Source: a virus
Virus record (IMG/VR): IMGVR_UViG_3300047373_000021
Span: 1 to 31,692 of that record
DNA: 31,692 nucleotides
Direction: 5' to 3' (one strand)
The notes below the pieces were generated by a model, which did no database searches, was not told where the DNA came from, and saw only the letters and a list, made by a program, of their open reading frames with translations. The translations under genes and the position numbers were made by a program. The stretch's first letter is position 1, and each line of letters begins with the position of its first letter. Below are positions 1-31,692 of the stretch, piece after piece.

Positions 1-123
1 CAGATGTTAAACGATTTAATTTTAAAACATCTGAACCATCTGCTGTAGCAAACAACAATCCATTTTGTCTGCTTTCAACACCAACATTTGCAATACCTGC
101 TGAAGTCTTACCAACTAATAAAT
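1..123. repeat. Terminal direct repeat, identical to 31570-31692. It is either the assembly overlap of a circular genome or terminal redundancy. Unique genome length is 31,569 bp.
   Basis: Compared base by base; all 123 positions match. Confidence 0.95.
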
Positions 124-3100
124 TACCACTACTATCTATTCTAGCTCTTTCGTTGTCACCATTGCCCTTGAATACTAAACCTGTGCCACCTGCTGCATGT
201 AATTCAGTTGTGCTTGATGAAGCCTTTAAAATTAATTTATTGGCATCTGAACTACTACCTCTTATATATCCTCCAGTATAAGCTGTTCCTGAAAGGTAGA
301 GGTTTTTGAATCTATATCCGCTTTGACCTAAGTCAACAGCATTATTTACTACACCCCCACCTGTAGTTGCAGGAATTACACCTGCATCATTAAAGTAAAG
401 ACCTTTTGTACTACCACTACCACCTGCAATATAAAAATTGTCTGTTGAAGCAACACCAATACTTCCAACTGTTGTTCCATTTTTTCTAAATAAAGCAATG
501 TCTCCATCTGATGATAGGCGATTTAAAGTTATAGCATTACCTGCTCTAGCTAAATAAAGTAAATCATTTAAGTCTGCTCTAAATTCAAAACCTTGGGTAG
601 CACCTGCATCAACACTTGTTTTGCCAAGCATGACGTTTCCACTACTATCTATCCTAAATCTTTCTGAACTATCTGTTTGGTCATATACTTTTAACGTACC
701 TGCATCTGTAATAAGTCTAAAATGCCCTTCAGTATTTTTTATATCTACACTAGCTTGACCTGCGTTAGTACTTTGAACTGTAAATGTATTATCATTTTTA
801 GCTGTTGTTATAGCACCTGTTACGTCTATGCCTGCTGAATTTAACTTTAAAATTTGTGCAGGCGGATTACCTACTTTAAAATTCATTTCAGGGGATGATG
901 AACCATAACCACCTTCAATAACTCCATACTTAGTAAAAGCTGTATGGAAATCTATAGCGACTCTATTATTAGCACCTGATGTATTATTAGATAGTTTGAG
1001 ACCAGTAGTTACTCCTGATGATGTATTGGTTGCACTTGCTGTTCCTGTTACGTCAATTCCGCTTGAGGTTGTAGATACTTTAGGCGCACCTGCATATCTT
1101 AAAGTTACTGCACCGCCATTAAAAAATGATGCATATTGTGAATCACCTGTAGAATTTTTAAATACTAGATTAGTAGCGTGTAGTTCTAAATTACCAGTTC
1201 CTGCATCTTTTACATAACTATTACTACCATCATGATAGATTTGTAAGTCATTACCTGCACCAAACTGAGCTTTTATATTGTCAGCAAAGTTAAGGTTATG
1301 AGAAAAGTTAAAGCTATCGTTAGCTGTATTCCAAGTTAAGGTAGCATCTTGGGTAGCACTTACAGCATCTTGAATGGTAATACCTGCACCATTAGCTGAA
1401 GCTGATGAATCACCTGTTGAATAGTTAAGGGTAATGTTTTTGTCTTTTACGTTTAGATCATCAGTATTTACGCTTGTTGTAGTACCTTGAACTGTTAGGT
1501 TGCCCTGAATAATTATGTTGTTAGAAAAGGTATGATCGCCTGTAATAGTAGAATCAAGATTTAAAGTAACTGAACCTGAAGTACCGCCACCATTTAAGTT
1601 AGTACCTGCTACTACTGCTGTAATATCACCAGTACCAGTTCCTAGTGCTTGACCATTCCAATATAAAGAACCGCCTACGTTGTAAAGATTATTAGTTGTA
1701 GTTGATGGTGTGTAAGACCCAAACTGTATTGAGCCTTGAGATATGTTAAATGTACCCTGACCAGTAAAACCATCTACAAATGTTGGTGCATTTTCAAATC
1801 TTGCAGTACCACTATCTACAATTAGACCATTATCAAACTCTACAACTTCACCAAAATTAGTTTTATTTAAGAACTTAACCCAGTTACCTGATTTACCTGA
1901 TACAGTTCCATAGGTTTCAACTGTTGACATGGTAACGCCATTCATTTCAACTTCAGTAGTTTTTACTGGGTCATCTGCAATAGTAAATGTTTTAGTAGAT
2001 GCGTTAGATTCAATACCAACACCATTGAAAGCTGTAATACTAGCTTCATAGTTAGAGCCTTTAGGTAAGAAAGCTAAATCAACTGAAGGTGTATCTACTA
2101 TTTTACTAAAGACATTATTGTCTGAGCTATCAACTACATCTACTCTGTATTGTCTTACTGGAAAATCAGTTGGCTCAGTCCAAGTTAAAGTAGGCCTGTT
2201 AATAGATGAAGCATCGGTATCAGTAAATACAATACTATTTGCTTGTGGTGGTTTTAAAGCACCTATAGTTGGTATCTTGGCTAATATTTCAGTTGATTCT
2301 TGAGCTGGTACTTCCCATGTATAGACATCAAAGTATTCAATCAAGCTAACAGATACAAGACCATTTGCCTGTAGTTCTAATGCTTCTACCCTACATATCT
2401 TGCCTGAGAATCCTAAACCTGAATAAGTAAGATCAACTATATCTCCTACGTTTAATTTATACATCTCAGGAGTTCCTAAGAACTGCATAGTGGTCTGATT
2501 TCTACTTCTAGTTAAGATAGCCTTACCCATGTTATAAGCAATGTATGGGTCTGTTACATAAGGGAACTCAGCTTTAATTTCTAATACTTCACCATCATCT
2601 GAATAATAATCAGGCGATGCATCATGTAAAACTGTAGCTGTATCTAGTTCGTATTTCTTATTTGCGTTAAAGAACTCAATAACAACTTTGTTTGCTTTCT
2701 TATCTTTATTGCCATAATCAACTGATATACCAGCATCAGCTATAATATGGTCATCAGTAATACTGAATGTAGAAGAGCCTGTATCTTCTATTTGTAATTC
2801 ATATTTACCATTAACGTAATTAAGAATACCTCGCATATTTGCAAGTAATTCTTTGGCGTTATCCATGACATTTTTATTAGTGTCAATGTAACCATTGCAA
2901 TGAAATCTTTTAACTTTAGCTTTAGCACTACCAGCTTCATTTGTATAACTGCTTGATAAAGTACCATCTATATATAATCTGTTTTCTTGGGTAGCATCAT
3001 AAAATTCATATCGTGTAGTACCTTTAATATCTACACCATCAAAAATTACAGTATCACTAGCATCTCTAATATCTATAACTTCATCTACTTTGTTTTGCCA

Positions 3101-4054
3101 CCAGTCAGCATTGTCATCTATAACAATAAAGTCATCACCTGAATCACCACTCCAAGTTACATCTTGGTAATTGCCATTGTAGTAAGGTTGATCTACTAAA
3201 GTATCGCACTTATTAGCAGCAGCACTAATAGTAGTCATGTTAATTTGTGAAGTTGCTAATCCTTTACCATATTCATCATTTTGTATGTAATCTAAGAAAC
3301 ATAGAGCTGGATTAGAAGACCAAGCAGTAGTGTCAGTTCTTGGGTCGTAAACTTTCTTACCTTTAACCTGTACTGTTATTTGCGGTACGCCTTTATACAT
3401 ACCTTTTTTATCGTAATCAAAAGATGCAGCTATATAACAAATACCATTTAATTTATGATTTGTAGTCCACTCAGTAGGTATAGATGCTCTGAGCATAGGG
3501 TCTGCTGTTTGACTTGATGCGCCATGATGCAAGTTAAATACAAAAGAATATCTAAGTGTTGGGTCAGTTCCTAATGTACCTGCGTTTGAGTATTGATTAT
3601 CACCAACTTGAGATGCAGTATTTAAAGAACCTGAACCTGAAGATATTTTATCTGAGCCTACATATCCACCACCTTTATAGATATTGCCATCTAAAATACT
3701 ATTCCCATCTATTTCAATAGTTCTGCCAAGTATCTCTTCACATTCTCCAACTGATATTGCATAAACAACAAATAAGTCTTTTGATCTGTTTTGTGCTGTA
3801 TCCATATAAACAATTTGAGCACCTACCCTTCTTGTTCCATAGATAACTGGTATCTTGCCACCAGCAGCAGTTTTGTTAGCCATGATGTCTTGACCTTTAG
3901 CTAACATTTGTTTTGCTTGTAAGAAGCCTTTAACACCTACTACTGTTGTATATGCAAAGAAAGCATTTTTAAGGTTAAAGCCACCTGCCCAACCTACTTG
4001 TTGTATTTTATTCCATACAAATTTACCAACAGCCTTAAAAAAATTACCTATCAT
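1..4054 (-). CDS. 5' part (codons 1-1351) of a giant tail-tip / host-specificity / fibre protein: lambda gpJ-like core, FN3-like domain, then fibre. The ORF runs off the window start and continues at 31569.
   Basis: ATG at 4054-4052 overlaps the TAA of the upstream gene (TAATG). I checked every minus-strand codon in this frame down to base 2 and found no stop. The translation contains GKIPVIYGTRRVGAQIVYM, SSNPALCFLDYIQNDEYGKGL and RFHCNGYIDT, which are typical of gpJ / Phage-tail_3 proteins. The frame is continuous with ORF 26759..31627 across the 123-bp overlap. Confidence 0.85.
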   Translation of the reverse strand, partial: MIGNFFKAVGKFVWNKIQQVGWAGGFNLKNAFFAYTTVVGVKGFLQAKQMLAKGQDIMANKTAAGGKIPVIYGTRRVGAQIVYMDTAQNRSKDLFVVYAISVGECEEILGRTIEIDGNSILDGNIYKGGGYVGSDKISSGSGSLNTASQVGDNQYSNAGTLGTDPTLRYSFVFNLHHGASSQTADPMLRASIPTEWTTNHKLNGICYIAASFDYDKKGMYKGVPQITVQVKGKKVYDPRTDTTAWSSNPALCFLDYIQNDEYGKGLATSQINMTTISAAANKCDTLVDQPYYNGNYQDVTWSGDSGDDFIVIDDNADWWQNKVDEVIDIRDASDTVIFDGVDIKGTTRYEFYDATQENRLYIDGTLSSSYTNEAGSAKAKVKRFHCNGYIDTNKNVMDNAKELLANMRGILNYVNGKYELQIEDTGSSTFSITDDHIIADAGISVDYGNKDKKANKVVIEFFNANKKYELDTATVLHDASPDYYSDDGEVLEIKAEFPYVTDPYIAYNMGKAILTRSRNQTTMQFLGTPEMYKLNVGDIVDLTYSGLGFSGKICRVEALELQANGLVSVSLIEYFDVYTWEVPAQESTEILAKIPTIGALKPPQANSIVFTDTDASSINRPTLTWTEPTDFPVRQYRVDVVDSSDNNVFSKIVDTPSVDLAFLPKGSNYEASITAFNGVGIESNASTKTFTIADDPVKTTEVEMNGVTMSTVETYGTVSGKSGNWVKFLNKTNFGEVVEFDNGLIVDSGTARFENAPTFVDGFTGQGTFNISQGSIQFGSYTPSTTTNNLYNVGGSLYWNGQALGTGTGDITAVVAGTNLNGGGTSGSVTLNLDSTITGDHTFSNNIIIQGNLTVQGTTTSVNTDDLNVKDKNITLNYSTGDSSASANGAGITIQDAVSATQDATLTWNTANDSFNFSHNLNFADNIKAQFGAGNDLQIYHDGSNSYVKDAGTGNLELHATNLVFKNSTGDSQYASFFNGGAVTLRYAGAPKVSTTSSGIDVTGTASATNTSSGVTTGLKLSNNTSGANNRVAIDFHTAFTKYGVIEGGYGSSSPEMNFKVGNPPAQILKLNSAGIDVTGAITTAKNDNTFTVQSTNAGQASVDIKNTEGHFRLITDAGTLKVYDQTDSSERFRIDSSGNVMLGKTSVDAGATQGFEFRADLNDLLYLARAGNAITLNRLSSDGDIALFRKNGTTVGSIGVASTDNFYIAGGSGSTKGLYFNDAGVIPATTGGGVVNNAVDLGQSGYRFKNLYLSGTAYTGGYIRGSSSDANKLILKASSSTTELHAAGGTGLVFKGNGDNERARIDSSGNLLVGKTSAGIANVGVESRQNGLLFATADGSDVLKLNRLTS

Positions 4055-4602: not shown

Positions 4603-5201
4603 TATGTTATTACCTCTCTAACATCAAATGAAATGCTGTAAAAACCACTAGCATCTGTACTATACATAATATCATTATTCTCAAGATATACAGTAAAAGA
4701 TGGCTTATTTACAGTTACAGCTTCATTATCTGCTAAAGAGCTAACAAGATTTGGAGATATTTTTACAGCAGCTAGTCCACCTGAAGCATTTGCATCTTCT
4801 TGCACCATATAAACTTTTGAATGACTGGCAAATTTAATTAGATCACCAGCTTTTAATGCACCTGTTGTTTGTGAGAAACCATCCATGTTTACAGTATCTA
4901 TCCCTGCTGAATGTGCGGTGTTTACAAGTATATCTGTTTCGCCTTTACTTGCACCTAAATTATCTAGTGGTGCTTGTATTGTAAAGTTACCAATAGCACC
5001 CTTTTGTTTTTGTAAGAAAGCAAATATCTCCTGAGCTTTCTCTTGTTGTATTGGTGGCATTTGAACTGTGAATGAAAAATACTGAGAACCTATTTGTCTT
5101 GCAGACTTTTTGCCTGATAAGGTTTGATTCAGTAATGTAGGTCTATTGTCTTGAAAGTTTATTGACCTAAAGTTTGGGTCTGTAGGAAATGCACCTGACA
5201 T
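4602..5201 (-). CDS. Distal tail protein, in the position of lambda gpM / RcGTA g12.
   Basis: 199-aa ORF immediately after the tape measure gene, with a TAATG overlap. The call rests mainly on synteny. Confidence 0.55.
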   Translation of the reverse strand: MSGAFPTDPNFRSINFQDNRPTLLNQTLSGKKSARQIGSQYFSFTVQMPPIQQEKAQEIFAFLQKQKGAIGNFTIQAPLDNLGASKGETDILVNTAHSAGIDTVNMDGFSQTTGALKAGDLIKFASHSKVYMVQEDANASGGLAAVKISPNLVSSLADNEAVTVNKPSFTVYLENNDIMYSTDASGFYSISFDVREVIT

Positions 5202-9041: not shown

Positions 9042-11360
9042 TTAGTCTGAAGATTTACAGAAAGATACTGCATGTCTTACAGCTACATCAACAGTTTGTA
9101 GAGCAACAATTCTTACTCCACCTGAAGTTGATAAAGCATAAGGATCAACAGTAATGTCTAAACCGCCATACATACCAATTAATAGGTCTGCAAAGTTACC
9201 AAAGTAGAAGTCTCCACTTGTTACTTGGTTACTTCTGATTACATTGTAACCATTCATGCTGTTGTCAGGTGACACAACAAATTGAGCAGTACCAGTAGCT
9301 TTTTCAGTAGTTTTTAATGTACCAAAGTCAGCAGGTCTACAGATGTATGCTAAAGAACCATTTAATGCGTTGTCATTAGCAACAGCAGATTCCATAGCTA
9401 CAATCTCAGCCCATGTTGGGTTAGCAGCACCAAAAGTAGTAGTGTTAATACCTGAAGTATTAGCAATACCTGTTGGCTGACCACTTGAACCTGAACCAGC
9501 TAAAGCACCTAAATCAATAGCAGTAGCTATAGATTTTGTTAGGTCATCTCTGATTAAGTTTTCAACATCTAATGAAGACTGTTGTAATAATAGTCTTGTA
9601 GCATCTGTGAAAGCACCAATTACTTTAGGTGACATTGTTACTGAACCTGAAGTAAATTCTGATTCAGAAGCAGCAGCACCTTCTGTTGCAATCCATCCAG
9701 CAGATGAAGCAGCAGTTTTCTTAGGTATTACAACATTACCTTGTAATCCTCTAAGCATAGTAGCACCAGCTTGCATTACTGAAGACTCATTTCTGAGAAC
9801 ATCAATAAAGTCTCCACCTCTGTAATCTTCACTTATTAGTTTTGAATCATCAGATGTGTTTAGGTCTCTTTTTCCCCAATTTCTTAGGACTTCTGAAGGC
9901 AACATGATACCTTGAGCATCTTTGCCATATTGTCTAGCAGCTTCAGCAGAACATTCAAATTCAAATGCTGCATCTTCCTGTGCTTTTCTATCAGATGGGT
10001 TAGCCATAGCTCTAATAGCTTTTACTAGGCTAAATTCTCTTACTTCTTCTTTAGTCATGCCGATTTCTGAAGGAGTTTCTAGTGGAGTGTTGTTAGAAAT
10101 ATTTTCTAGCAATACACCTCTAAATTCTTCAACAGAGATACCATCACTAATTGCTTTGTCAGCTAAATCTCTTTTATTGTGTCTAACTGCTAAATCTATG
10201 ATCTCTTTTGAGTTTCTTTTAAATTCAGCTTTAGCTTCATCAATAGTTTGAGTTCTAACTTCATCAAGATTAATATCTTTATTTTCCATTGTTATTACCT
10301 CTATATTATTAATAGTTTGTTTATCTTTAGAACGACCAACTCCAACAAGTCTTGACTGGTCAGCAGGAACAGACACAGAAGAAACTTCCATAGGTGTCCA
10401 TTGAGCTTTATAGTAATTCTCATCATCTTTGTTCATTCTAGTTAATTTATCGACTCTGTAGCCAACTGAAATGTTCATGCGTATACCATCAGCTACATCT
10501 TCAAATATTTCTTGAGCTAAAGCAGATTTACCAAACCTAACTACAGCAGTTGTCCTTTTTGCTGTCTCATCTAATTTGAATTCTTCAATTACACCAATTT
10601 GCTTTTCCATATCATGGTCAAGTAATAATGGTGCTCTTCCTGAGTTTATAAACTCCATGTTTATATCATCAGCAGAATGTCCTAGTACTTCCATACCAAA
10701 ACTTCTTTCAACTGGTTCTTCACTAGAAACACCAACTCTAACCCTTCTGCTTTCTTCATCAATGTAAGAAGCCTTAGATAAATCAATAGTTCTATATTTC
10801 ATAGGCATATCAATTACTTTTCTTTCTTCTTCATCTGATTCAAGCATAGAGACTTCATCAGTTGTTTCTACTTCATCACCTTCGTGTTCTACATCCTCAT
10901 GTTTCTCAAACTCAACAATAACAGTATTGTCAGTTTCAGTTACATTGAGGATATGTCTATCAGTTTTATCCATAGTTTTCTCCTCTTCATTTGTTAATAA
11001 AGGATGTTTTTCTGATTCTTGCGAATCAAAACTTTTTTGTCTTTCATCTTCTTTCTTCATTTGTTCTACTAATCTTTTTGACCAAGAATAACCTGCATCA
11101 CCACCCCATAATGCCCAAGCTATTCTGCCATTTGAAGGATAACCTTCTTCACCTTGTTTAAATCCTTCAGCTTGTTTGTCTACTTCATGCCTACTGAAGA
11201 AGCTATACATTCTTTTAATAGTTTCATCAGATAGATTTTCACCAGCTACTATTTGTCTTGCTCTTACAGCACCGACCCTAGTACCACCTCTACCATGCTC
11301 TTCACGCCAATCTAAACCCCTCTGAGCTTCTTCTTTCATGCCCTGAGTAGGATTACTCAT
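9042..11360 (-). CDS. Fusion protein: unknown N-terminal domain + HK97-type prohead serine protease (S78) + scaffold-like linker + HK97-fold major capsid protein.
   Basis: Single 772-aa ORF. The protease region carries LLLDHDMEKQIG and MNISVGY. The C-terminal roughly 330 aa look like a Phage_capsid (HK97) domain (...GSVTMSPKVIGAFTDATRLLLQQSS...). An acidic linker follows the N-domain. Confidence 0.9.
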   Translation of the reverse strand: MSNPTQGMKEEAQRGLDWREEHGRGGTRVGAVRARQIVAGENLSDETIKRMYSFFSRHEVDKQAEGFKQGEEGYPSNGRIAWALWGGDAGYSWSKRLVEQMKKEDERQKSFDSQESEKHPLLTNEEEKTMDKTDRHILNVTETDNTVIVEFEKHEDVEHEGDEVETTDEVSMLESDEEERKVIDMPMKYRTIDLSKASYIDEESRRVRVGVSSEEPVERSFGMEVLGHSADDINMEFINSGRAPLLLDHDMEKQIGVIEEFKLDETAKRTTAVVRFGKSALAQEIFEDVADGIRMNISVGYRVDKLTRMNKDDENYYKAQWTPMEVSSVSVPADQSRLVGVGRSKDKQTINNIEVITMENKDINLDEVRTQTIDEAKAEFKRNSKEIIDLAVRHNKRDLADKAISDGISVEEFRGVLLENISNNTPLETPSEIGMTKEEVREFSLVKAIRAMANPSDRKAQEDAAFEFECSAEAARQYGKDAQGIMLPSEVLRNWGKRDLNTSDDSKLISEDYRGGDFIDVLRNESSVMQAGATMLRGLQGNVVIPKKTAASSAGWIATEGAAASESEFTSGSVTMSPKVIGAFTDATRLLLQQSSLDVENLIRDDLTKSIATAIDLGALAGSGSSGQPTGIANTSGINTTTFGAANPTWAEIVAMESAVANDNALNGSLAYICRPADFGTLKTTEKATGTAQFVVSPDNSMNGYNVIRSNQVTSGDFYFGNFADLLIGMYGGLDITVDPYALSTSGGVRIVALQTVDVAVRHAVSFCKSSD

Positions 11361-17315: not shown

Positions 17316-18185
17316 TTAGTCATGGCAAAAACAGCTTCTAGTATCATCATCCAGCAAATCTAATTGGGTGTTATCTTCTGCAATTTGCACAATATCAATA
17401 AATCCCTGACCATTAGATTTAAAAGTTGCAACGTAATTAGAGCCATAATCTTTTTTGGCTTTTGCTATTTTGGTCTCTTGTTTAATCCACCAATCAGCTA
17501 AATCAGGTCTTTCTTTTATAATCTTTACTAAAGTTTGCGTACCTTTTAAGTAACACAAATCACAGTTACCAGCTATAGTTTTACCATTGTAGTTGGGTAG
17601 CTTTAAATCAAAATTGCTTTTTTCCCAAAACTCTCCAACATGCTCTGCTGTAACTTTATTGTCATAAAGTGGCATTAATGATTCCCATTTATTTTTGTTA
17701 GCTTCGTTTTGATTTTTTTGTTTTGATACCCTTCTAGGTTCATCATATCTAAGACCTATGACATTAAACCACTCTTTGTAACCCTTTGACCTCATAAATC
17801 TAGCCATAACACTTACTTTTAATTCTGCTGTACAAATTCTCATAGCTGGATTTGGTAACATTTTCTTTCTATCTATCAATGCTTCAAAAGGTTCTCCATT
17901 CCTACTAGCTGTTTTGTAATTAACTTCTTTGTTTCTATAAATTGGTCTTTCCTCATGTATATCTAATTCCAACCAATTCACTTTTACATCCCACATCTCT
18001 TCACAATCATGTATGAAATCTAAAGTTTCATCCATCTCTTTACCAGTATTTGCAAAAACCACATGCACATCTTCAGGTAATTTACCATCATGTGCTTTAA
18101 GTATTTCATGCAACATATATGCTGAAGTTCTACCGCCACTAAAACTAATTAAAGCAGGTTCATCTATTTTGTATTTATTTTTCAT
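17316..18185 (-). CDS. PAPS reductase-family PP-loop (adenine nucleotide alpha-hydrolase) enzyme with C-terminal Cys motifs.
   Basis: The PP-loop is SFSGGRTS. Also MRICTAELK and GLRYDEPRR, plus the Cys clusters NCDLCYLKG and RSCFCHD. Confidence 0.8.
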   Translation of the reverse strand: MKNKYKIDEPALISFSGGRTSAYMLHEILKAHDGKLPEDVHVVFANTGKEMDETLDFIHDCEEMWDVKVNWLELDIHEERPIYRNKEVNYKTASRNGEPFEALIDRKKMLPNPAMRICTAELKVSVMARFMRSKGYKEWFNVIGLRYDEPRRVSKQKNQNEANKNKWESLMPLYDNKVTAEHVGEFWEKSNFDLKLPNYNGKTIAGNCDLCYLKGTQTLVKIIKERPDLADWWIKQETKIAKAKKDYGSNYVATFKSNGQGFIDIVQIAEDNTQLDLLDDDTRSCFCHD

Positions 18186-26051: not shown

Positions 26052-26302
26052 TATTCTTCCTCTGTTACTTCCTCAACTTCTGCTTCTTCTATAGTGTCAG
26101 CAAAAGCCTTGACTTGAAGTTCTCTGTAATCAGCAGTAATAACATAGTCTTCATAAGCATCTTGAAGTCTTTGCAGTTTTCTCTGAGCTACGTTTAGTTT
26201 CCCAGCTATATTTGCTTGATCTTCATTTAAGTCTTCAGCTTTAAAGTCTCTACCATTAAAGTTGATGATTACATCATTTTTTACTTCATTCTCTGTACTC
26301 AT
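26051..26302 (-). CDS. Hypothetical acidic protein (83 aa).
   Basis: AGGAGA SD upstream. TAATG overlap with the next gene. Confidence 0.55.
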   Translation of the reverse strand: MSTENEVKNDVIINFNGRDFKAEDLNEDQANIAGKLNVAQRKLQRLQDAYEDYVITADYRELQVKAFADTIEEAEVEEVTEEE

Positions 26303-26338
26303 ATTTCTCTCCTATAAGTTAATAAGTTTCTTAATTTT

Positions 26339-26388
26339 ATTATATATAAATTTACGCCTGTGGCCATATTGCAGATGCAATATATTGC
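26339..26388 (-). promoter_or_regulatory. Candidate promoter (-10 TATAAT at 26339-26344, weak -35 TGGCCA at 26361-26366). It is flanked by three copies of the heptamer GCAATAT/ATATTGC, including a 12-bp perfect palindrome.
   Basis: ATATTGC occurs at 26366-26372 and 26382-26388, and GCAATAT at 26377-26383. The palindrome GCAATATATTGC spans 26377-26388. Confidence 0.35.
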
Positions 26389-26392
26389 CATT

Positions 26393-26749
26393 TTATTCGC
26401 CTATTGTTTTTGTTTCAGTAGTAGGTGTAATTTGCTCATCTATGTTTTCTTTTAAAGATTTTTTTAGATTAGCTACTTCTTCTTCACCCATAATACTTTG
26501 CACCCATCCACTAACTATAGTGTTAGTTAAGTCTGCAAAAGGTATAAAGTCAGAACCAATATCATCTAGTGATAATGATTGAGTGCCATAAGAACTTGCT
26601 GTATATGGTACTTCTTGACCATCTACTTCGTGCTTTTCACTACTTGTTGCGTTTAGTCTCCAATGAACATTGTAAACTGTATCTGTATGTTCCTCGTATT
26701 CAGGATATACATCTACTGTTTTACAGTCCCATGTGTATGTATTTGCCAT
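26393..26749 (-). CDS. Hypothetical protein directly downstream of the fibre gene (possible fibre accessory or assembly protein).
   Basis: 118-aa ORF with a GGAGAA SD, 9 nt after the fibre stop codon. I recognise no family. Confidence 0.55.
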   Translation of the reverse strand: MANTYTWDCKTVDVYPEYEEHTDTVYNVHWRLNATSSEKHEVDGQEVPYTASSYGTQSLSLDDIGSDFIPFADLTNTIVSGWVQSIMGEEEVANLKKSLKENIDEQITPTTETKTIGE

Positions 26750-26758
26750 TTTGTTCTC

Positions 26759-29700
26759 CTATAAAGTTGTTATTATAAATGCTAGGAGTTCATTATATCT
26801 TACTCCTAGTCTTGTTTGCTCGTTACCATCATCATCAGTCCAAGTGCTAGATATAAACATACCATAATCACCTGCATCTAATCCTTCAGCTTCAAAAGCA
26901 TCTTGTAAGTCTTGGGCTATAACACCAAAGTGGTATCTAGCATCATCGCCTTTTTTCTCTACTGCATCTTGCCATCTGAACCTTCTTATTAAACCTTTAC
27001 ATGCTGTAGCTACTCTTTGCTCTGCTTCTGTTAAGGTTTGTATGTCTTGTTTCTCATTTCTATCAGAAGTGTTGATAGTTCCATTGGTTGCGTAAATATC
27101 ATCAAATCTTGAGCCTGAGTTACCTAAGTCCATAGCATTATCTGCTGTGCTACCATCACCCCTACAGGGTAATGCTGCTTCAGTTACTGTATAATCTATA
27201 AATCTAAGACCAAAACCTGCACTACTTGTAGTACCACTTGCAATATACATATCACTACCAGTAGTGCTATTAATACCTATATTACCTTTAGTAGTTCCGC
27301 CAACTTGAACTGCTATGATTTGCCCTGTATCAGATTCACTATCATTTGCTGTTATAACTGGATTATAGGTTTCAGTTTTATTAAAGTTAAATACACCATC
27401 ACCTGTTGCTGTTATAGACCCTGATGTAATATTTCCACTTGGATAAATCGTTGCAGCTTCACTTTCACCTGCTGTTGTACCGCCAACAATAAAGCGACCT
27501 GCTGAGTCTATTCTAGCTGTTTCGCTGTTATTAACATAGAAAGTAATATTTGATGTGCCATTATCATTATTTCTATCAACACCTAATCTTAGTTCAGAGC
27601 TATTTGTATAAAGTTCTGCTGGTGCTGAATCACCAAATCTAATATTACCTGTAGTGTGTAAAGACTCAGTTGGATTAGTTGTGCCTATTCCAACCTTCGC
27701 ACCTTTTAAAGTCATGGTGTCTGTAAAAGCACCATCTGTGAATAGCATAGAATCATTAGAAGCATCATGTTGTATTTTAGCTTTTACACCATCATCTTCT
27801 TCAAAGAATATTGAAGCATCTGAGCCTACTGCATTTGCATTTATAAAAATACTTGCATTACCTGCATTGGTTACTTTCAAAGCACCGCCTGAAACTTCAA
27901 GTTTTGCTGCTGGGATAGCAGTGCCAATTCCAACATTGTTTGAGCTATCAATGTTGATGTTAGCTGCATTGCTTCCTGAATTTCTACCTATACTTAAAAT
28001 ACCACCTTCAGCACTCATATAACCAATAGTGTCATTATCAGCTATTTTTAGTATTGACCTGTTAGTTCTTGATAAGACTTCTAAGGTTGCTATATTACCG
28101 CCTTCGTTATTAATAACTACATTACCTGTTTGACCGCTAGATAAAGTACCAACTGTTAAAGTAGCAGTTGGATTTGTGTTTTTTATACCTAATCTACCTG
28201 AAGCATCGAAACGACCAACTTCTGTATTTTGTGTAAAGAATTTTAGATTTGAACTTAAAGATACCGCTACAATATCTAAATCATCCCTATCACTTGCGTT
28301 AAGTTCAATCCTACCTCTTGTAGTTCCTGCATCAGTTAGGTAGATATTATCTTCTGCTGATATAGCACCTGTAGATGTAACACCACCAACATTAGCTGTT
28401 CCTGCAAGATAAAGGTCTTTGAATCTTGTATCAGACTTACCTAAGTCTATAGCATTATCTCTACCTGCTATAGTTGATGTATTGATAGGATAAATTTTAT
28501 CTTCAGAAGCATTGAAGTAAATTCCAGTATCACCTGTGCCTAGATAAATATTACTAGCAACAGTACCAATACTTCCAACTGATGAGCCATTTTTGCGGAA
28601 TGAAACAATGTCTCCATCGCTATCAAGCCTGTTAAAATATGCAGTAGCATTGTTAGATTTGGCTAATTGTATAGTTCCATCTGATTCAATTACAGTCCCT
28701 GTATTGCCACCTGCACCATTATTCCAAAGGGAGCTATCAGTAGTCCCAACCAACAGATTGCCTGATGAGTCTATCCTTGCTCTTTCACTTCCACCAGTTG
28801 CAAAAGCAATAGTGTTGTCAGTATTAGGATTAAACATACCTGTATCAACATCACCATTAAATGAATAAGCTGGATTAGATGCAACTCTTCCTGAGTTTGT
28901 TGCTTGTATAAATGCTTCTTTAGAGTTACCAACTCCTACTTGCACATTACCATTTACATGAAGCGGTGAAGCTGGCGAAGTCGTATTAATTCCAACCGAA
29001 CCACCAGCTTTAATAGTAACTCTATCTGTTCCACTTTCCCTAATAAAGAAATCAGCATTGTAAGGTTTTAAACTCCATGATGAGGCATACGTACCTGTTC
29101 TAGCTACTGTTAATTCTGCATTACCATCAGGTGCTGAAACGTGTAAAGCTGTGCTTGGCGAACTTGTGCCGATACCCAATTTTCCATTAGTAAATCTAGC
29201 TGTTTCTGAATTATCACTTCCATAGAATCTTTGTGAGCCTGAGCCATCTACTAAAAATCTTGTTTGGCTACTTGAGTCACAAACTTCAAGACCATAAGAA
29301 GTTGAGGAATTAGCATCTGAACCTACGCTTAATGCTACTGCTGCATTGACAGATTTATTAATTCCAACGCTACCACCTGAAGAAATAGTTAGTCTTCTTG
29401 TATTACCTGTTTTTATACCCAATGTATGACTTGTTGTTGTACCAAACTCCATGTCTGTAGTTGAATCTACATACGCAAAGTTTGCCTTAACTGCACCACC
29501 ACTTCTTTGCCATTCAGATAATGCCACATCACCATTAGCTGTATAAGTACCTGTAAATGTTGCTACTGGAGCATTGGCAGTTGAGTTTAAAACATCTATG
29601 CCACCTGCTACATTAGCTATTCCTGTAAGATAAAGGTTTCTAAATCTATTTGCAGATGAACTAAAACCTAAGTCTACTGAGTTATCAGTCTGTGGGTATA

Positions 29701-31692
29701 AGTGATTTGTATTTAAGTTAAGTAGAGCTGCATTACTTGCACCTAATTGTAGGTTAGCATTTGTACCAATAATGGTCATTTTATTAGAACCACCTACACC
29801 AATGCTTCCCACCAAAGAGCTGTCTTTGTATAACGCTAAGATACTGCCATCACTTGATAAACGATTGAGGTAAAGTGCTGTGTTTCCATCTTTTACAAAA
29901 TGCCCACCCCCAACAAGATTACTACCTTGAGTCCCAAAATCTCCGCTAGTTTTACCAACTAGAAACAGACCACTACTATCTATTCTAGCTCTTTCAGAAC
30001 CACCTGTATAAAAACGCATGACTCTTGAAGATGAAGTAGAATTTATAGATACATTAGAGTCACTACCTAAATATAAAGTTCTTCCACTATCTAAACCAAT
30101 ATCTCCAGCAGCAATATCTAGCTTATGACTTGGCGAAGTTATACCAATTCCAACCTTGCCATCACCATTAAATGTAGCCAAAGTAGCATCACTGGAATTA
30201 GCAATTCTTAATGCGTAATGTGAAGATGTGCTACCTGCTGAAACTCTTAAACCATAGTTATCTGCTCTTACCCATGAACCAAGAGTAGTTGCAGATGATG
30301 AAACTACTTTTAATGTAGCATCAACTGAAGTTGCACCTATTCCAACACGACCTGCTGAGTCAATTGTAAATCGTGTAGTATTAGCAGTATCATCATAAAT
30401 ATAAAAATTACCTGTTGAGTTAGATATAAAGGTAAATTCTCTACCGCCACTAGAATTTGTATTAGCTAGTGTAAAAGTAGTTCCTAATGCTGAATTAGAT
30501 GTTGTGGTTATTCTTGAACCATCATAAGTAAAGTTAGCTTCAGCGTTTAATGTATTTGCTGTACCGCTACCTGTAATAATTCTATTATCAGCGTTGTTGT
30601 TAATGGTTGTCCCTTCTGTATCATCATCCGCCCATATAACTTGGCTACCAGTTGAAGGATATTTAAGAACTTGCCCTGCTGAACCACTTGTTGAAGGTAG
30701 GGTGTATTCGTTGTCAACTGTAAAAGAACCTTGAATGTTTATGTTGTTAGCATAAGCTGTTCCTGAAAGGTAGAGGTCTTTAAATTTATTGTTAGTATTA
30801 CCTAAATCTAACAAACCATTACTTACGCCATTTGTTGTAAGATTCCAAGGAGTTATTTGATTTGCATCTGCAACAAATCTTAATCCTGTATCACCAGTAC
30901 CAATAGTTAATCTAGCACTTTGAGTACCAATACTTCCAACTGTTGTACTATCTTTTCTTAAATCTATAATAGTTCCATCAGATGTAAGTCTGTTAAAGTT
31001 AATACATTCACCGCCATCTCTAGTTATATTAGCAAAACCATTAGCACTAAATCTATGACCAGCAACTCCTGTATTACTAGTTGTTCTCCCAACTAACAAA
31101 TTACCGCTACTATCTATCCTAGCTCTTTCTGATGTACCCGCTCTGAGTAGCAAGTTATTGCCTTTAGCACCTATTGCTACAGCAGCAGCACCAAAAGTAC
31201 CTGTTGTGGTGCTATCTTTAAGAGCAATAAACACATTAGTATCAGTAGACTCAACACCTAGAGGAACATTATCTGTACCACCGCTTACATGAAGGTCAAC
31301 TGTTGAGTCGGGTGAGGTTGTGTTTACAGCAACTTTACTAGTATAAGCTGTTCCTGAAAGGTGAAGGTCTTTGAATCTTGAGCTGCTACTGCCTAAATCT
31401 TTAGAACCATCAGCAACACCACCTGTAGATGTTGAAGGTAAGATTGCATTAGAAATTAAATGTATTCCTGAACCACTACCAAGAGGTGTGCCTAAAGCTA
31501 TACCTGTAGATGTTGTAGATATTCTGCCAACTGTTGAGCTATCTTTTCTAAATTGTGTAATTTCTCCATCAGATGTTAAACGATTTAATTTTAAAACATC
31601 TGAACCATCTGCTGTAGCAAACAACAATCCATTTTGTCTGCTTTCAACACCAACATTTGCAATACCTGCTGAAGTCTTACCAACTAATAAAT
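26759..31692 (-). CDS. 3' part of the same giant tail-fibre gene (2,954 aa in total): repeated fibre modules ending in an S74 chaperone domain. Positions 31570-31692 duplicate 1-123.
   Basis: The frame is open to the window end. The TTG 'start' at 31627 in the ORF track is internal. 4054 + 4811 nt = 8865 nt = 2955 codons. Fibre motifs recur (ERARIDSSGNLLVG, NRLSSDGDI..FRK.G..VGSIG, DLG.S..RFK.LYLSG). Confidence 0.85.
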   Translation of the reverse strand, partial: LLVGKTSAGIANVGVESRQNGLLFATADGSDVLKLNRLTSDGEITQFRKDSSTVGRISTTSTGIALGTPLGSGSGIHLISNAILPSTSTGGVADGSKDLGSSSSRFKDLHLSGTAYTSKVAVNTTSPDSTVDLHVSGGTDNVPLGVESTDTNVFIALKDSTTTGTFGAAAVAIGAKGNNLLLRAGTSERARIDSSGNLLVGRTTSNTGVAGHRFSANGFANITRDGGECINFNRLTSDGTIIDLRKDSTTVGSIGTQSARLTIGTGDTGLRFVADANQITPWNLTTNGVSNGLLDLGNTNNKFKDLYLSGTAYANNINIQGSFTVDNEYTLPSTSGSAGQVLKYPSTGSQVIWADDDTEGTTINNNADNRIITGSGTANTLNAEANFTYDGSRITTTSNSALGTTFTLANTNSSGGREFTFISNSTGNFYIYDDTANTTRFTIDSAGRVGIGATSVDATLKVVSSSATTLGSWVRADNYGLRVSAGSTSSHYALRIANSSDATLATFNGDGKVGIGITSPSHKLDIAAGDIGLDSGRTLYLGSDSNVSINSTSSSRVMRFYTGGSERARIDSSGLFLVGKTSGDFGTQGSNLVGGGHFVKDGNTALYLNRLSSDGSILALYKDSSLVGSIGVGGSNKMTIIGTNANLQLGASNAALLNLNTNHLYPQTDNSVDLGFSSSANRFRNLYLTGIANVAGGIDVLNSTANAPVATFTGTYTANGDVALSEWQRSGGAVKANFAYVDSTTDMEFGTTTSHTLGIKTGNTRRLTISSGGSVGINKSVNAAVALSVGSDANSSTSYGLEVCDSSSQTRFLVDGSGSQRFYGSDNSETARFTNGKLGIGTSSPSTALHVSAPDGNAELTVARTGTYASSWSLKPYNADFFIRESGTDRVTIKAGGSVGINTTSPASPLHVNGNVQVGVGNSKEAFIQATNSGRVASNPAYSFNGDVDTGMFNPNTDNTIAFATGGSERARIDSSGNLLVGTTDSSLWNNGAGGNTGTVIESDGTIQLAKSNNATAYFNRLDSDGDIVSFRKNGSSVGSIGTVASNIYLGTGDTGIYFNASEDKIYPINTSTIAGRDNAIDLGKSDTRFKDLYLAGTANVGGVTSTGAISAEDNIYLTDAGTTRGRIELNASDRDDLDIVAVSLSSNLKFFTQNTEVGRFDASGRLGIKNTNPTATLTVGTLSSGQTGNVVINNEGGNIATLEVLSRTNRSILKIADNDTIGYMSAEGGILSIGRNSGSNAANINIDSSNNVGIGTAIPAAKLEVSGGALKVTNAGNASIFINANAVGSDASIFFEEDDGVKAKIQHDASNDSMLFTDGAFTDTMTLKGAKVGIGTTNPTESLHTTGNIRFGDSAPAELYTNSSELRLGVDRNNDNGTSNITFYVNNSETARIDSAGRFIVGGTTAGESEAATIYPSGNITSGSITATGDGVFNFNKTETYNPVITANDSESDTGQIIAVQVGGTTKGNIGINSTTGSDMYIASGTTSSAGFGLRFIDYTVTEAALPCRGDGSTADNAMDLGNSGSRFDDIYATNGTINTSDRNEKQDIQTLTEAEQRVATACKGLIRRFRWQDAVEKKGDDARYHFGVIAQDLQDAFEAEGLDAGDYGMFISSTWTDDDGNEQTRLGVRYNELLAFIITTL
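26762..27067 (-). other. Peptidase S74-type intramolecular chaperone (auto-cleaving) domain at the C-terminus of the fibre.
   Basis: The last 102 aa begin SDRNEKQDIQTL... and contain YHFGVIAQDLQDAF. This matches the SD.r.K ... G.iAQ pattern of the endosialidase / T5 pb1 C-terminal chaperone domain. Confidence 0.75.
31570..31692. repeat. Second copy of the 123-bp terminal direct repeat (equals 1-123).
   Basis: Exact identity with the window start. Confidence 0.95.

What the first reader, a model, noticed from the sequence alone, without database searches (positions are those of the whole stretch)
26759..31569. The fibre shaft is built from at least six copies of a three-motif module
Three motifs recur in a fixed order. 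Motif 1 is (E/T)RARIDSSGNLLVG. Motif 2 is (L/F)NRL(S/T)SDG.I...(R/Y)K.(S/G)(S/T).VGSIG. Motif 3 is DLG.(S/T)..(R/K)F(K/R).LYL(S/A/T)G. The spacing between motifs varies, so modules span about 190-330 aa. On the DNA, the motif-1 copies lie at 625-667, 110-151, 31088-31129, 29954-29995, 28745-28786 and 27482-27523. Weaker ...R(F/L)TI.S.G.VGI... repeats lie between modules. The motifs are conserved at the protein level while the DNA has diverged. That pattern points to old serial duplications kept under selection, and to a fibre whose length is set by module number. Homologous cores up to 27 bp long could still drive gain or loss of copies.
Basis: seen in the sequence. Interest (0 to 1): 0.65.

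Follow-up and report, generated by a model that had tools for sequence, protein, structure and literature searches.

The report
Repeated beta-helix modules in phage fibre
A small marine phage spends 28% of its genome on one 2,954-residue tail-fibre protein whose rod holds six copies of a roughly 140-residue building block; that block is very common in ocean phage fibres but absent from Pfam and NCBIfam, so this is an ordinary new example of a known kind of fibre.

Summary
The window is a 31,569-bp circular or terminally redundant siphovirus genome with a 123-bp end repeat. One minus-strand gene wraps the ends (ATG at 4054, stop at 26759-26761) and encodes 2,954 aa. The protein has a lambda-J-like N-terminus, an fn3 domain, a long shaft and a C-terminal S74 self-cleaving chaperone.

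They belong to six colinear modules of about 140 aa. The copies are 32-48% identical to each other (BLASTP E down to 1e-28). A profile built only from other proteins scores them at 76-168 bits, against 7.4 bits at most for shuffles.

The last module abuts the S74 cleavage site. With the chaperone, it aligns to the beta-helix stalk plus chaperone of T5 pb1 and the K1F endosialidase. The weaker "VGIG" repeats between modules match the capping-loop motif of Bdellovibrio MAT fibres.

The module family is very large: 32,472 protein clusters match it. It is not in Pfam or NCBIfam.

Relatives carry 0-6 copies. Each copy here is closer to modules in other proteins than to its sisters. Mosaic exchange therefore explains the array better than in-gene serial duplication, and module number explains fibre length only partly.

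Verdict: a new member of a known kind, of modest interest.

The parts
1..4054 (-). 5' part of the fibre gene (aa 1-1351). The ATG is at 4054 and overlaps the stop of the upstream tail gene (TAATG). This part holds the J-like anchor, the fn3 domain, the proximal shaft, M1 and the start of M2.
26759..31569 (-). 3' part of the same gene (aa 1352-2954 plus the stop at 26759-26761). It continues in frame from position 1 across the circular junction.
31570..31692 (.). A 123-bp direct terminal repeat, identical to positions 1-123. It lies inside module M2. It marks a circular or terminally redundant genome of 31,569 bp.
1955..4054 (-). N-terminal anchor (aa 1-700), resembling lambda gpJ and the GTA megatron protein. 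It includes Pfam Phage-tail_3 (aa 426-556) and fn3 (aa 607-688). Relatives are 71-92% identical here.
701..1954 (-). Proximal shaft (aa 701-1118). It uses other repeat types and contains no three-motif module.
269..700 (-). Module M1 (aa 1119-1262).
   Evidence: 130 bits with the foreign-only HMM
1..187 (-). Module M2, first part (aa 1290-1351). It continues at 31334-31569.
   Evidence: 141 bits
31334..31569 (-). Module M2, second part (aa 1352-1430).
30743..31165 (-). Module M3 (aa 1487-1627).
   Evidence: 167 bits
30032..30742 (-). Inter-module segment (aa 1628-1864). It carries RFTIDSAGRVGIG and one capping-loop motif (KVGIGITSPSHKL).
29594..30031 (-). Module M4 (aa 1865-2010).
   Evidence: 112 bits
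28823..29593 (-). Inter-module segment (aa 2011-2267) with two capping-loop motifs.
28382..28822 (-). Module M5 (aa 2268-2414). The AlphaFold2 monomer model is all-beta with mean pLDDT 84.
   Evidence: 168 bits
27560..28381 (-). Inter-module segment (aa 2415-2688) with three capping-loop motifs. Residues 2459-2582 (nt 27878-28249) align with residues 8-141 of the 152-residue solved chain of the Bd3182 trimeric beta-helix domain (8ojn_C, E = 5e-4).
27065..27559 (-). Module M6 (aa 2689-2853). This is the diverged terminal copy and it ends at the S74 cleavage serine (…NGTINT|S2853-D-R-N-E-K2858).
   Evidence: 76 bits
26762..27067 (-). C-terminal intramolecular chaperone and autoprotease (Peptidase_S74, aa 2853-2954).

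Best explanation
**What the gene encodes.** It encodes the central tail fibre of a small marine siphovirus related to the CRP-822-type roseophages. The gene order is tape measure, distal tail protein, tail protein, then this fibre.

**Architecture.**
- The N-terminal ~700-1,000 aa form a conserved lambda-J-like anchor that fixes the fibre to the tail tip.
- The remaining ~2,000 aa form a homotrimeric beta-structured rod built as a chain of related segments.
- Six segments are the three-motif module, about 140 aa each. Five are internal and one is terminal.
- The gaps between M3 and M6 hold Bd3182-like beta-helix segments, bounded by "capping-loop" motifs (V-G-I-G-x-x-x-P-x-x-x-L).

**What the module is.**
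- It is the same kind of element that sits directly before the C-terminal S74 chaperone in phage fibres and spikes: the trimeric beta-helix "stalk".
- Motif 1 is a variant of the strand plus capping-loop start seen in MAT fibres.
- Motif 2 is a beta-hairpin in the model.
- Motif 3 is the conserved stretch that precedes the S74 cleavage serine in other S74 proteins.

**How it most likely works (inferred, from established knowledge of S74 proteins).**
- The C-terminal S74 domain nucleates trimer folding from the C-terminal end.
- It then cuts itself off at S2853 (dyad S2853/K2858), exposing the M6 tip for receptor contact.
- The internal modules act as rod segments that give reach.
- Using 0.4-0.7 Å per residue from the solved and modelled Bdellovibrio fibres, the shaft would be about 90-150 nm. 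That is as long as, or longer than, the tail expected from a 580-aa tape measure.

**How the array arose.** It was most likely assembled, and is remodelled, by recombination among fibre genes that share a very large pool of such modules, not only by duplication inside this gene.

**Shown:** the repeat anatomy, family size, domain order, synteny and variation among relatives.
**Inferred:** the trimeric beta-helix fold of the internal modules, the folding order, the cleavage and the fibre length.
For: **Anatomy**
- Six colinear modules.
- Pfam finds Phage-tail_3, fn3 and Peptidase_S74 (42 bits, cut-off 22).
- The S-D-R-N-E-K motif lies at the end of M6.

**Genome context**
- The neighbouring genes are tape measure, distal tail protein and tail protein. 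Terminase, portal and major head genes are also present.
- The major head protein is 56% identical to that of Roseobacter phage CRP-811 and 38% to those of Synechococcus siphophages S-CBS1 and S-CBS3.
- That group is described as a family-level group of 29-33 kb siphoviruses (PMC12629253).

**The module sits in the pre-chaperone stalk position**
- By sequence, the second half of M6 plus S74 aligns to tailspike 6eu4 (E = 9e-22), fibre 7y5s, T5 pb1 (4uw8) and the K1F endosialidase (3gw6).
- The M6+S74 model aligns over 245-256 of 266 columns to 4uw8 and 3gw6 (Foldseek E 1e-8 to 5e-7).
- Motif 3 of the module profile matches the last 26 residues of the phi92 endosialidase chain (4hiz), though weakly (E = 0.94).

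**Fold of an internal module**
- The M5 model is all-beta with pLDDT 84.
- The best PDB neighbours are a mixed set, none significant. The top-ranked hits are trimeric fibre or spike beta-helices: Bd3182 8onc (prob 0.91), Bd1334 8oml and phi92 endosialidase. K5A lyase (prob 0.93), T5 pb1, T4 gp34 and VgrG1 come lower in the list, interleaved with many unrelated Plk1 polo-box chains.
- The significant BFVD neighbours are uncultured and cyanophage fibres, many carrying the intramolecular chaperone domain.

**Link to MAT fibres**
- Residues 2459-2582 align with residues 8-141 of the 152-residue Bd3182 beta-helix chain (E = 5e-4).
- Bd2133 contains "SERMRIDTSGNLGLGTAAPTSALHV", which is motif 1 in its capping-loop form.
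- The capping-loop consensus from PMC10769870 occurs six times between modules.

**Family size and usage**
- 32,472 representative proteins match at E ≤ 1e-3 and 15,197 at E ≤ 1e-10. Many carry 2-5 full copies.
- The last module of a protein is followed by S74 in 78 of 250 proteins, by an unnamed DYEEG tip in 55, by another C-terminal region shorter than 200 aa in 59, and by the end of the protein or contig within 30 aa in 18.

**Mosaic origin**
- The nearest relatives of each copy are in other proteins.
- Relatives share the anchor at 71-92% identity but have different shafts.
- P0005, at a syntenic locus, keeps the anchor and the last 230 aa at 82% identity but has a different middle, leaving the protein 1,261 aa shorter. 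The breakpoint lies inside M6.
Against: - No trimer could be modelled. The beta-helix fold of the internal modules rests on monomer models whose PDB matches are all above E = 0.001 with TM 0.2-0.46.
- Profile comparison of the module with the solved Bd3182 sequence aligns only the 26 columns of motif 1 (hhalign probability 65%). The module profile against Bd2133 gives only E = 0.025.
- The M6 part of the second model is poorly predicted (pLDDT below 50 for residues 27-78).
- Cleavage, trimer state, fibre length and receptor binding are all untested.
- Mosaic assembly versus ancient in-gene duplication cannot be separated firmly, because the copies are roughly equidistant (40-50%) from most other modules.
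Confidence: 0.75

Rival explanations
1. One reading: the six copies arose by serial duplication inside this gene and are kept by selection. Fibre length is tuned by module number. Copies can still be gained or lost by recombination between the short conserved DNA cores.
For: - All six copies are colinear and in one orientation.
- M1-M3 are nearly tandem, with gaps of 27 and 56 aa.
- M4-M6 form a longer super-repeat of about 400 aa (HSPs 1817-1999/2203-2406 and 2202-2400/2637-2839).
- Module counts among relatives range from 0 to 6 and correlate with length (Spearman 0.40, p = 0.002).
- Shared exact DNA words of 20-27 bp exist.
- The genome encodes an exonuclease VIII-like recombination nuclease.
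Against: - Sister copies are only 29-46% identical, while each has 55-87% matches in other proteins.
- Third-codon positions are close to random.
- Close relatives differ by replacement of the whole shaft, not by clean copy-number steps.
- Many long relatives have no copy.
- No near-identical shaft exists in the databases searched, so recent gain or loss could not be tested.
Confidence: 0.25
2. The modules are not only spacers. Each is a binding unit with a lateral cleft, as described for the S74-type beta-helix tips of Bd3182, T5 pb1 and the K1F endosialidase. The fibre would then be a multivalent adhesin that binds surface polysaccharide at six points along its length.
For: - The module is homologous to the terminal, receptor-exposed element that precedes S74.
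- PMC10769870 describes a ligand cleft on such domains that is exposed after cleavage.
- The variable stretches between the motifs, which include insertions in M5 and M6, would be surface loops.
Against: - There is no direct evidence of binding.
- The conserved residues are the kind expected for fold and trimer packing: Gly, Asp-Gly turns and hydrophobic strands.
- Bd2133 has such beta-helix segments without a cleft.
- In other proteins a dedicated tip domain usually follows the last module. That suggests the module itself is scaffold.
Confidence: 0.2
3. Assembly artefact: the end repeat lies inside a repeated gene, so the circle could be a false join through repeats, or the true copy number could have been collapsed or inflated by the assembler.
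For: The 123-bp terminal repeat falls inside module M2 of a repeat-rich gene.
Against: - The modules share no DNA word longer than 27 bp and are 44-59% identical. They therefore cannot create a 123-bp exact overlap.
- The ORF and module M2 stay in frame and in register across the junction.
- Relatives carry intact fibres of 2,785-3,076 aa inside contigs of 22-35 kb.
- The locus of P0005 is syntenic.
Confidence: 0.04
4. The repeats form a beta-propeller or other WD40-like solenoid, not a fibre.
For: The module profile gave whole-sequence E-values of 1e-8 to 1e-3 against designed and natural WD40 proteins in the PDB.
Against: - Those hits have no single stretch passing threshold. Every stretch has an independent E-value above 30, covers only profile positions 18-60 and scores 0-7 bits. 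They are sums of weak compositional matches over 6-14 blades.
- The units here are 140 aa, not 40.
- Fold searches return no propeller as a significant match.
Confidence: 0.01

Closest known systems
Phage fibres and spikes ending in the S74 intramolecular chaperone: K1F endosialidase stalk (3GW6), T5 L-shaped tail fibre pb1 (4UW7/4UW8), phi29 gp12 (3GUD), AS12 gp42 (6EU4)
   Same: - It has a C-terminal Peptidase_S74 domain with the S-D-x-x-x-K motif.
- Module M6 sits where the trimeric beta-helix stalk sits.
- Motif 3 (DLG..S.RF.D.Y) is the conserved stretch just before the cleavage serine.
- The sequence and fold matches are significant.
   Different: - Those proteins have one such stalk segment before the chaperone. 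Here five further copies lie upstream without chaperones.
- The protein is fused to a J-like tail-tip anchor.
- It is 2-4 times longer.
Bdellovibrio bacteriovorus MAT (mosaic adhesive trimer) fibres: Bd3182, Bd2133, Bd1334 (8ONC/8OJN, 8OND, 8OML; PMC10769870)
   Same: - These are long trimeric fibres built from serial beta-helix segments of about 130-150 aa with capping loops.
- They end either in S74 or in other tip domains. The same alternation is seen among proteins that carry the module.
- The capping-loop motif occurs six times here.
- Residues 2459-2582 align with residues 8-141 of the 152-residue Bd3182 chain.
   Different: - Those are bacterial surface proteins with a signal peptide and their own N-terminal domain. 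This is a phage J-like protein.
- The six three-motif modules lack the P-x-x-x-L half of the capping loop.
- Beyond motif 1 they are not detectably similar in sequence to the solved MAT segments.
Lambda gpJ and RcGTA 'megatron' central tail fibre or host-specificity proteins
   Same: - The N-terminal Phage-tail_3 domain, a PHROG 'central tail fiber J' match, and the gene position after the tape measure, distal tail and tail-protein genes.
   Different: - The NCBIfam GTA_megatron score is far below its cut-off (24.6 against 800 bits).
- The C-terminal ~2,000 aa have no counterpart in gpJ.
- In the cultured relative CRP-811 the J-like protein (971 aa) and the fibre proteins are separate genes and carry no module.
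Repeat-built shafts of T4-type long tail fibres (gp34, gp37) and the modular fibre classes of the RBPseg atlas (PMC12143355)
   Same: - Fibre rods are made of reiterated, permutable subdomains.
- S74 or lectin-like heads are exchanged at the end.
- T4 gp34 appears among the weak fold neighbours.
   Different: There is no sequence relationship to those repeat units. The atlas covers coliphage fibres and not this marine module.

Membership tests
S74 intramolecular-chaperone fibre/spike proteins | C-terminal Peptidase_S74 domain above Pfam's gathering score | tested here: met
   PF13884 scores 42 bits against a cut-off of 22, at aa 2853-2914. PDB sequence matches: 6eu4, 7y5s, 3gud, 4uw8 and 3gw6.
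S74 intramolecular-chaperone fibre/spike proteins | Catalytic Ser-Lys motif S-D-x-x-x-K at the domain start | tested here: met
   S2853-D-R-N-E-K2858 is read directly in the translation. The serine, aspartate and lysine are invariant in 27 aligned module+S74 proteins.
S74 intramolecular-chaperone fibre/spike proteins | Trimeric beta-helix or fibre segment immediately N-terminal to the chaperone | tested here: inconclusive
   The M6+S74 monomer model aligns over 245-256 columns to 4uw8 and 3gw6 (E 1e-8 to 5e-7). However TM is 0.3-0.35 and part of M6 has low confidence. No trimer could be modelled.
S74 intramolecular-chaperone fibre/spike proteins | Autoproteolytic release of the chaperone after trimer folding | not testable with these tools
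   This needs expression of the C-terminal fragment and an S2853A mutant.
MAT-type beta-helix fibre segments (Caulton et al. 2024) | Capping-loop consensus V-G-G/N-pi-x-x-P-x-x-x-L | tested here: met
   There are six matches, around aa 1838, 2163, 2224, 2492, 2578 and 2658. All lie in inter-module segments. The consensus comes from PMC10769870.
MAT-type beta-helix fibre segments (Caulton et al. 2024) | The six three-motif modules themselves carry the capping-loop consensus | tested here: not met
   Motif 1 reads ...RIDSSGNLLVGKTS... without the P-x-x-x-L half. hhalign against Bd3182 covers only 26 columns, with probability 65%.
MAT-type beta-helix fibre segments (Caulton et al. 2024) | Sequence similarity to a solved MAT beta-helix domain | tested here: met
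   This holds for the inter-module segment only. Residues 2459-2582 match 8ojn_C residues 8-141 of 152 at E = 5e-4. The module profile against 8ond_A gives E = 0.025, which is marginal.
MAT-type beta-helix fibre segments (Caulton et al. 2024) | Signal peptide followed by the conserved ~130-aa N-terminal domain of Bdellovibrio MAT proteins | not tested
   No search was run for a signal peptide or for the conserved MAT N-terminal domain. The N-terminus does match the phage Phage-tail_3 / J-like family. The resemblance to MAT fibres is therefore claimed for architecture only, not for membership.
Lambda gpJ-like central tail fibre | Phage-tail_3 domain and gene position after the tape measure and distal tail genes | tested here: met
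   PF13550 scores 27.1 bits against a cut-off of 23. phrog_31 'central tail fiber J' gives E = 1.6e-37. The neighbours are the tape measure (5204-6943), the distal tail protein (4605-5201) and a tail protein (4057-4602).
RcGTA megatron (NCBIfam NF048004 equivalog) | Score above the curated cut-off | tested here: not met
   24.6 bits against a cut-off of 800.
Any named domain or repeat family for the three-motif module | A Pfam-A or NCBIfam model covering aa 1119-2853 | tested here: not met
   No Pfam family covers the modules at E ≤ 0.1, apart from a sub-threshold NlpE match. NCBIfam gives none. Short module-plus-tip proteins also have no Pfam hit. Only unnamed PHROG 'tail fiber' families overlap the region.

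The most novel reading that the evidence does not exclude
The three-motif module would be an uncatalogued and extremely abundant junction element of marine phage fibres. New distal ends (the S74 chaperone, 'DYEEG' tips and others) would be swapped in at this conserved joint. Under this reading, the five internal copies are fossil junctions left behind as the fibre grew distally by successive tip capture. Alternatively, each copy is an independent glycan-binding cleft. In either case one 31.6-kb phage would carry a fibre of 100 nm or more that records its own history of host switches.
Probability: 0.15. Interest if true: 0.55.

Novelty: new member of a known kind. Interest (0 to 1): 0.3.

Why it matters
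Tail fibres decide which hosts a phage can infect. The hosts of this low-GC marine phage group are only predicted; PMC12629253 suggests SAR86, SAR11 or NAC11-7.

**Practical value**
- A domain family of about 140 aa with more than 30,000 protein clusters, common in ocean metagenomes, has no Pfam or NCBIfam model. Defining it would let annotators recognise and segment thousands of "hypothetical" marine fibre proteins.
- The relatives show where fibre cassettes are exchanged: after the conserved ~700-1,000-aa anchor, and inside or after the last module. That is useful for host-range prediction and for fibre engineering.

**Limits**
The finding does not reveal a new mechanism. Serial beta-helix segments ending in an S74 chaperone or an alternative tip are already described for phage fibres and for Bdellovibrio MAT fibres.

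Tried and rejected
- **Plain self-BLASTP** returned only the identity hit. I replaced it with windowed queries against a masked copy.
- **My first references** for the 3' part of the gene were out of frame. I corrected them to 26762-31567.
- **WD40 and beta-propeller hits** of the module profile in the PDB are rejected. No single stretch passes threshold, and the whole-sequence score is the sum of 6-14 very weak repeats.
- **The NlpE Pfam match** (16 bits, below its cut-off) is rejected as chance.
- **My first regex for the S74 motif** was too strict. It was corrected.
- **Foldseek of the M5 monomer against the PDB** gave no significant match. It is used only as a weak indication of fold class, as expected for one chain of an intertwined trimer.
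- **hhalign of the module profile against the Bd3182 sequence** aligned only motif 1. The modules are therefore not filed as MAT-type segments.
- **The search for close relatives of this shaft** failed, so recent copy-number change could not be tested. IMG/VR gave at most 36-43% identity over long matches. The 5.8-billion-protein search gave at most 45% in the shaft.
- **The cultured relative CRP-811** has no module, so it does not help with module counts.
- **An assembly artefact at the junction** was considered and rejected.
Full report
**1. The locus**

The first and last 123 bases of the window are identical. The sequence is therefore a 31,569-bp circular or terminally redundant genome cut at an arbitrary point. 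That point lies inside a gene.

Joined across the ends, the minus strand carries one ORF. It starts at the ATG at 4054, which overlaps the stop of the upstream gene as TAATG. It stops at 26759-26761 and encodes 2,954 aa, or 28% of the genome.

Pfam finds three domains: Phage-tail_3 (aa 426-556), fn3 (aa 607-688) and Peptidase_S74 (aa 2853-2914; 42 bits against a cut-off of 22). PHROGs adds "tail fiber" and "central tail fiber J" for the N-terminal part, and several "tail fiber" or "tail spike" families for the C-terminal part.

All the large genes lie on the same strand. They are terminase, portal, a 772-aa major head protein, tail terminator, a 580-aa tape measure, distal tail protein, a 182-aa tail protein, and then this gene.

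The head protein is 56% identical to that of Roseobacter phage CRP-811. It is 38-45% identical to other CRP-822-type roseophages and to Synechococcus siphophages S-CBS1 and S-CBS3. That group is described as a family-level group of 29-33 kb marine siphoviruses. Its low-GC members (about 35% GC, as here) are predicted to infect SAR86, SAR11 or NAC11-7 (PMC12629253).

**2.

All three motifs occur in the stated order and, apart from a 2-3 nt slip for the first copy, at the stated coordinates.

They are not isolated motifs. Windowed self-BLASTP gives 40 colinear HSPs of up to 222 aa, with E down to 1e-28. MAFFT aligns six units end to end:

| Module | Residues |
|---|---|
| M1 | 1119-1262 |
| M2 | 1290-1430 |
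| M3 | 1487-1627 |
| M4 | 1865-2010 |
| M5 | 2268-2414 |
| M6 | 2689-2853 |

Pairwise identity between copies is 32-48%.

To avoid circularity I built an HMM from 72 modules of other proteins only. It finds exactly these six full-length copies, at 76-168 bits. It also gives two weak partial matches (9-12 bits) in the segments between them. 200 shuffles of the shaft reach at most 7.4 bits.

The DNA copies are 44-59% identical. Third-codon positions are 35-55% identical against 37.5% expected by chance.

Motif-1 spacings are 171, 197, 378, 403 and 421 aa. M1-M3 are therefore nearly tandem. M4-M6 form a longer super-repeat of about 400 aa that includes an upstream segment.

**3. What the module is**

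M6 ends exactly at the S74 motif (…DDIYATNGTINT-S2853-D-R-N-E-K2858).

By sequence, the second half of M6 plus the chaperone matches solved phage proteins that include the region before the cleavage site:
- tailspike 6eu4 (E = 9e-22)
- fibre 7y5s
- T5 pb1, 4uw8
- K1F endosialidase, 3gw6
- phi29 gp12, 3gud

In 6eu4 the aligned stretch includes "DLGSSGSTFRNAYLQN", which is motif 3. The module profile also matches the last 26 residues of the phi92 endosialidase chain with motif 3, though weakly (E = 0.94).

An AlphaFold2 monomer model of M6+S74 has pLDDT 69. The chaperone part scores 85-94 and part of M6 is poor. It aligns over 245-256 of 266 columns to 4uw8 and 3gw6 (Foldseek E 1e-8 to 5e-7).

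An internal copy, M5, modelled with 73 aligned modules, is all-beta with pLDDT 84. It has no significant PDB match. This is expected for one chain of an intertwined trimer. Its neighbours are a mixed set. The top-ranked ones are trimeric fibre or spike beta-helices: Bd3182 (prob 0.91), Bd1334 and phi92 endosialidase. K5A lyase, T5 pb1, T4 gp34 and VgrG1 appear lower down, interleaved with many unrelated Plk1 polo-box chains. In the viral model library its significant matches are uncultured-phage and cyanophage fibres, many annotated with the intramolecular chaperone domain.

My reading is that the module is a variant of the trimeric beta-helix stalk segment that normally precedes the S74 chaperone. 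This is inferred. It is not shown for M1-M5.

**4. What lies between the modules**

The weaker R(F/L)TI.S.G.VGI repeats are real. They match the capping-loop consensus V-G-G/N-π-x-x-P-x-x-x-L, defined from crystal structures of Bdellovibrio MAT fibres (PMC10769870). There are six exact matches, all in the three long gaps.

Residues 2459-2582 align with residues 8-141 of the 152-residue solved chain of the Bd3182 beta-helix domain, from its first capping loop to its second (8ojn_C, E = 5e-4).

Bd2133 contains "SERMRIDTSGNLGLGTAAPTSALHV". This shows that motif 1 (SERARIDSSGNLLVGKTS) is the same element with the P-x-x-x-L half replaced. Beyond those 26 columns, the module profile and Bd3182 are not alignable (hhalign probability 65%).

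The shaft is thus a chain of two related kinds of beta-structured segment. The same paper describes fibres built from serial beta-helix segments of 130-150 aa that end either in S74 or in other tip domains.

**5. How widespread the module is**

A six-copy profile searched against 1.84 billion representative proteins finds 32,472 proteins at E ≤ 1e-3, 15,197 at ≤ 1e-10 and 2,840 at ≤ 1e-30. Among the top 150, full copies per protein range from 1 to 5. That ranking and the comparison with six copies here are biased, because the profile came from this protein.

The hits named by their sources are mostly Tara and GOS marine metagenome proteins. Among cultured phages the module occurs in fibres of Roseobacter phages (CRP-821/822/823, CRP-5, CRP-1, CRP-227) and of Pelagibacter podophages. 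Prochlorococcus P-SCSP1 phages match only a stretch between M3 and M4.

Neither Pfam nor NCBIfam has a model for it.

I examined 447 full copies in 250 proteins:
- 197 copies are followed by another copy.
- The last copy of a protein is followed by the S74 motif in 78 proteins.
- It is followed by an unnamed tip starting "…LDDYEEGTWTP" in 55 proteins.
- It is followed by another C-terminal region shorter than 200 aa in 59 proteins.
- It is followed by the end of the protein or contig within 30 aa in 18 proteins.

**6. Relatives and origin**

Fifty-eight homologues of the whole protein (1,642-3,521 aa, mostly on 10-35 kb contigs) share the N-terminal 700-1,000 aa at 50-92% identity. Their full-module counts range from 0 to 4, against six here. 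Module count correlates with length only moderately (Spearman 0.40, p = 0.002), and many relatives of 2,400-3,500 aa have none.

After the anchor the shafts are replaced, not resized. P0001 is 92% identical over aa 2-949, unalignable in the middle, and 45% identical over the last 700 aa.

P0005 lies at a syntenic locus, with the same 182-aa upstream gene and the same lysis and exonuclease genes downstream. It keeps aa 5-1026 and aa 2725-2954 at 82% identity but has a different middle, and the protein is 1,261 aa shorter. The breakpoint lies inside M6, between motifs 1 and 2.

Each of M1-M6 has matches of 55-87% identity in other proteins. Its sisters are only 29-46% identical and rank 29th to 449th. 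Only the terminal M6 type forms a recognisable subtype, and it is always the last copy.

These facts favour mosaic assembly from a shared pool. Ancient in-gene duplication followed by exchange cannot be excluded.

No close relative of this exact shaft exists in the protein database or in IMG/VR, so recent gain or loss could not be tested. The cultured relative CRP-811 has a separate 971-aa J-like tail protein and small fibre genes, and it has no module.

**7. Likely mechanism**

From established knowledge of S74 proteins (Schulz et al. 2010, cited in PMC12143355; PMC10769870), I infer the following:
- The C-terminal chaperone nucleates trimer folding and then removes itself at S2853, exposing the M6 end.
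- The upstream modules and capping-loop segments form the rod.

The length estimate uses these figures from PMC10769870:
- 60 Å for the 135-aa Bd3182 segment
- about 150 Å for the 370-aa Bd2133 tip
- about 550 Å for the full Bd3182 model

On that basis the ~2,150-aa shaft would measure roughly 90-150 nm. That is about the length of the tail or longer. CRP-822 has an 89-nm tail and 19-nm fibres.

None of this was tested here.

**8. Artefact check**

The end repeat lies in M2. The modules share no DNA word longer than 27 bp, so they cannot produce a 123-bp exact overlap. The ORF and M2 remain in register across the junction. Relatives carry intact giant fibres inside their contigs. The junction is therefore genuine.

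**9. Verdict**

In-gene serial duplication, length set by module number, and recombination at the 27-bp cores are not shown.

This is a new member of a known kind, namely serial beta-helix fibre segments ending in an S74 chaperone. Its module family is very abundant and has no Pfam or NCBIfam model. Interest is modest.

Noticed in passing
window 1-123 and 31570-31692: There is a 123-bp exact direct terminal repeat, so the window is a complete circular or terminally redundant genome of 31,569 bp. The cut point falls inside module M2 of the fibre gene.
   Followed up: yes
L001 914-5995 (protein P0005) compared with window aa 1-2954: A syntenic relative keeps the anchor (aa 5-1026) and the last 230 aa at 82% identity. 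Its middle is different and the protein is 1,261 aa shorter. The recombination breakpoint lies inside M6, between motifs 1 and 2, which indicates that the tip-plus-chaperone end moves as a cassette.
   Followed up: partly
proteins P0070, P0091, P0121, P0137 and about 50 others: In many marine proteins the module is followed not by S74 but by a conserved unnamed tip that begins '…DLYLSGGVYLGGTGSANKLDDYEEGTWTP'. This tip has no Pfam match.
   Followed up: partly
L002 (Roseobacter phage CRP-811) 14281-20369: In the closest cultured relative, the J-like tail protein (971 aa), a 247-aa fibre protein and a 796-aa structural protein are separate genes and carry no module. In the window the anchor and the fibre are fused into one ORF.
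   Followed up: partly
window 17319-18185 (-): This ORF matches PHROG families annotated as phosphoadenosine phosphosulfate reductase (E = 1.4e-51). It may be an auxiliary metabolic gene or a DNA-modification gene.
   Followed up: no
window 9045-11360 (-): The major head protein is 772 aa. The capsid match covers residues 188-770, and a separate N-terminal region (aa 4-114) matches an unnamed PHROG family. A 'major head and protease' family also matches, so this may be a fused protease/scaffold and capsid gene.
   Followed up: no
window 701-1954 (-), aa 701-1118: The proximal shaft uses a different repeat vocabulary (for example 'DLQIYHDGSNSYVKDAGTGNLELHATNL'). Relative P0005 has an extra copy of about 115 aa of this region.
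   Followed up: no
window 5955-6599 (+), 9922-10251 (+), 26262-26582 (+), 27654-28022 (+): These plus-strand ORFs of 106-214 aa lie inside, or overlap, minus-strand ORFs. They are probably not genes.
   Followed up: no
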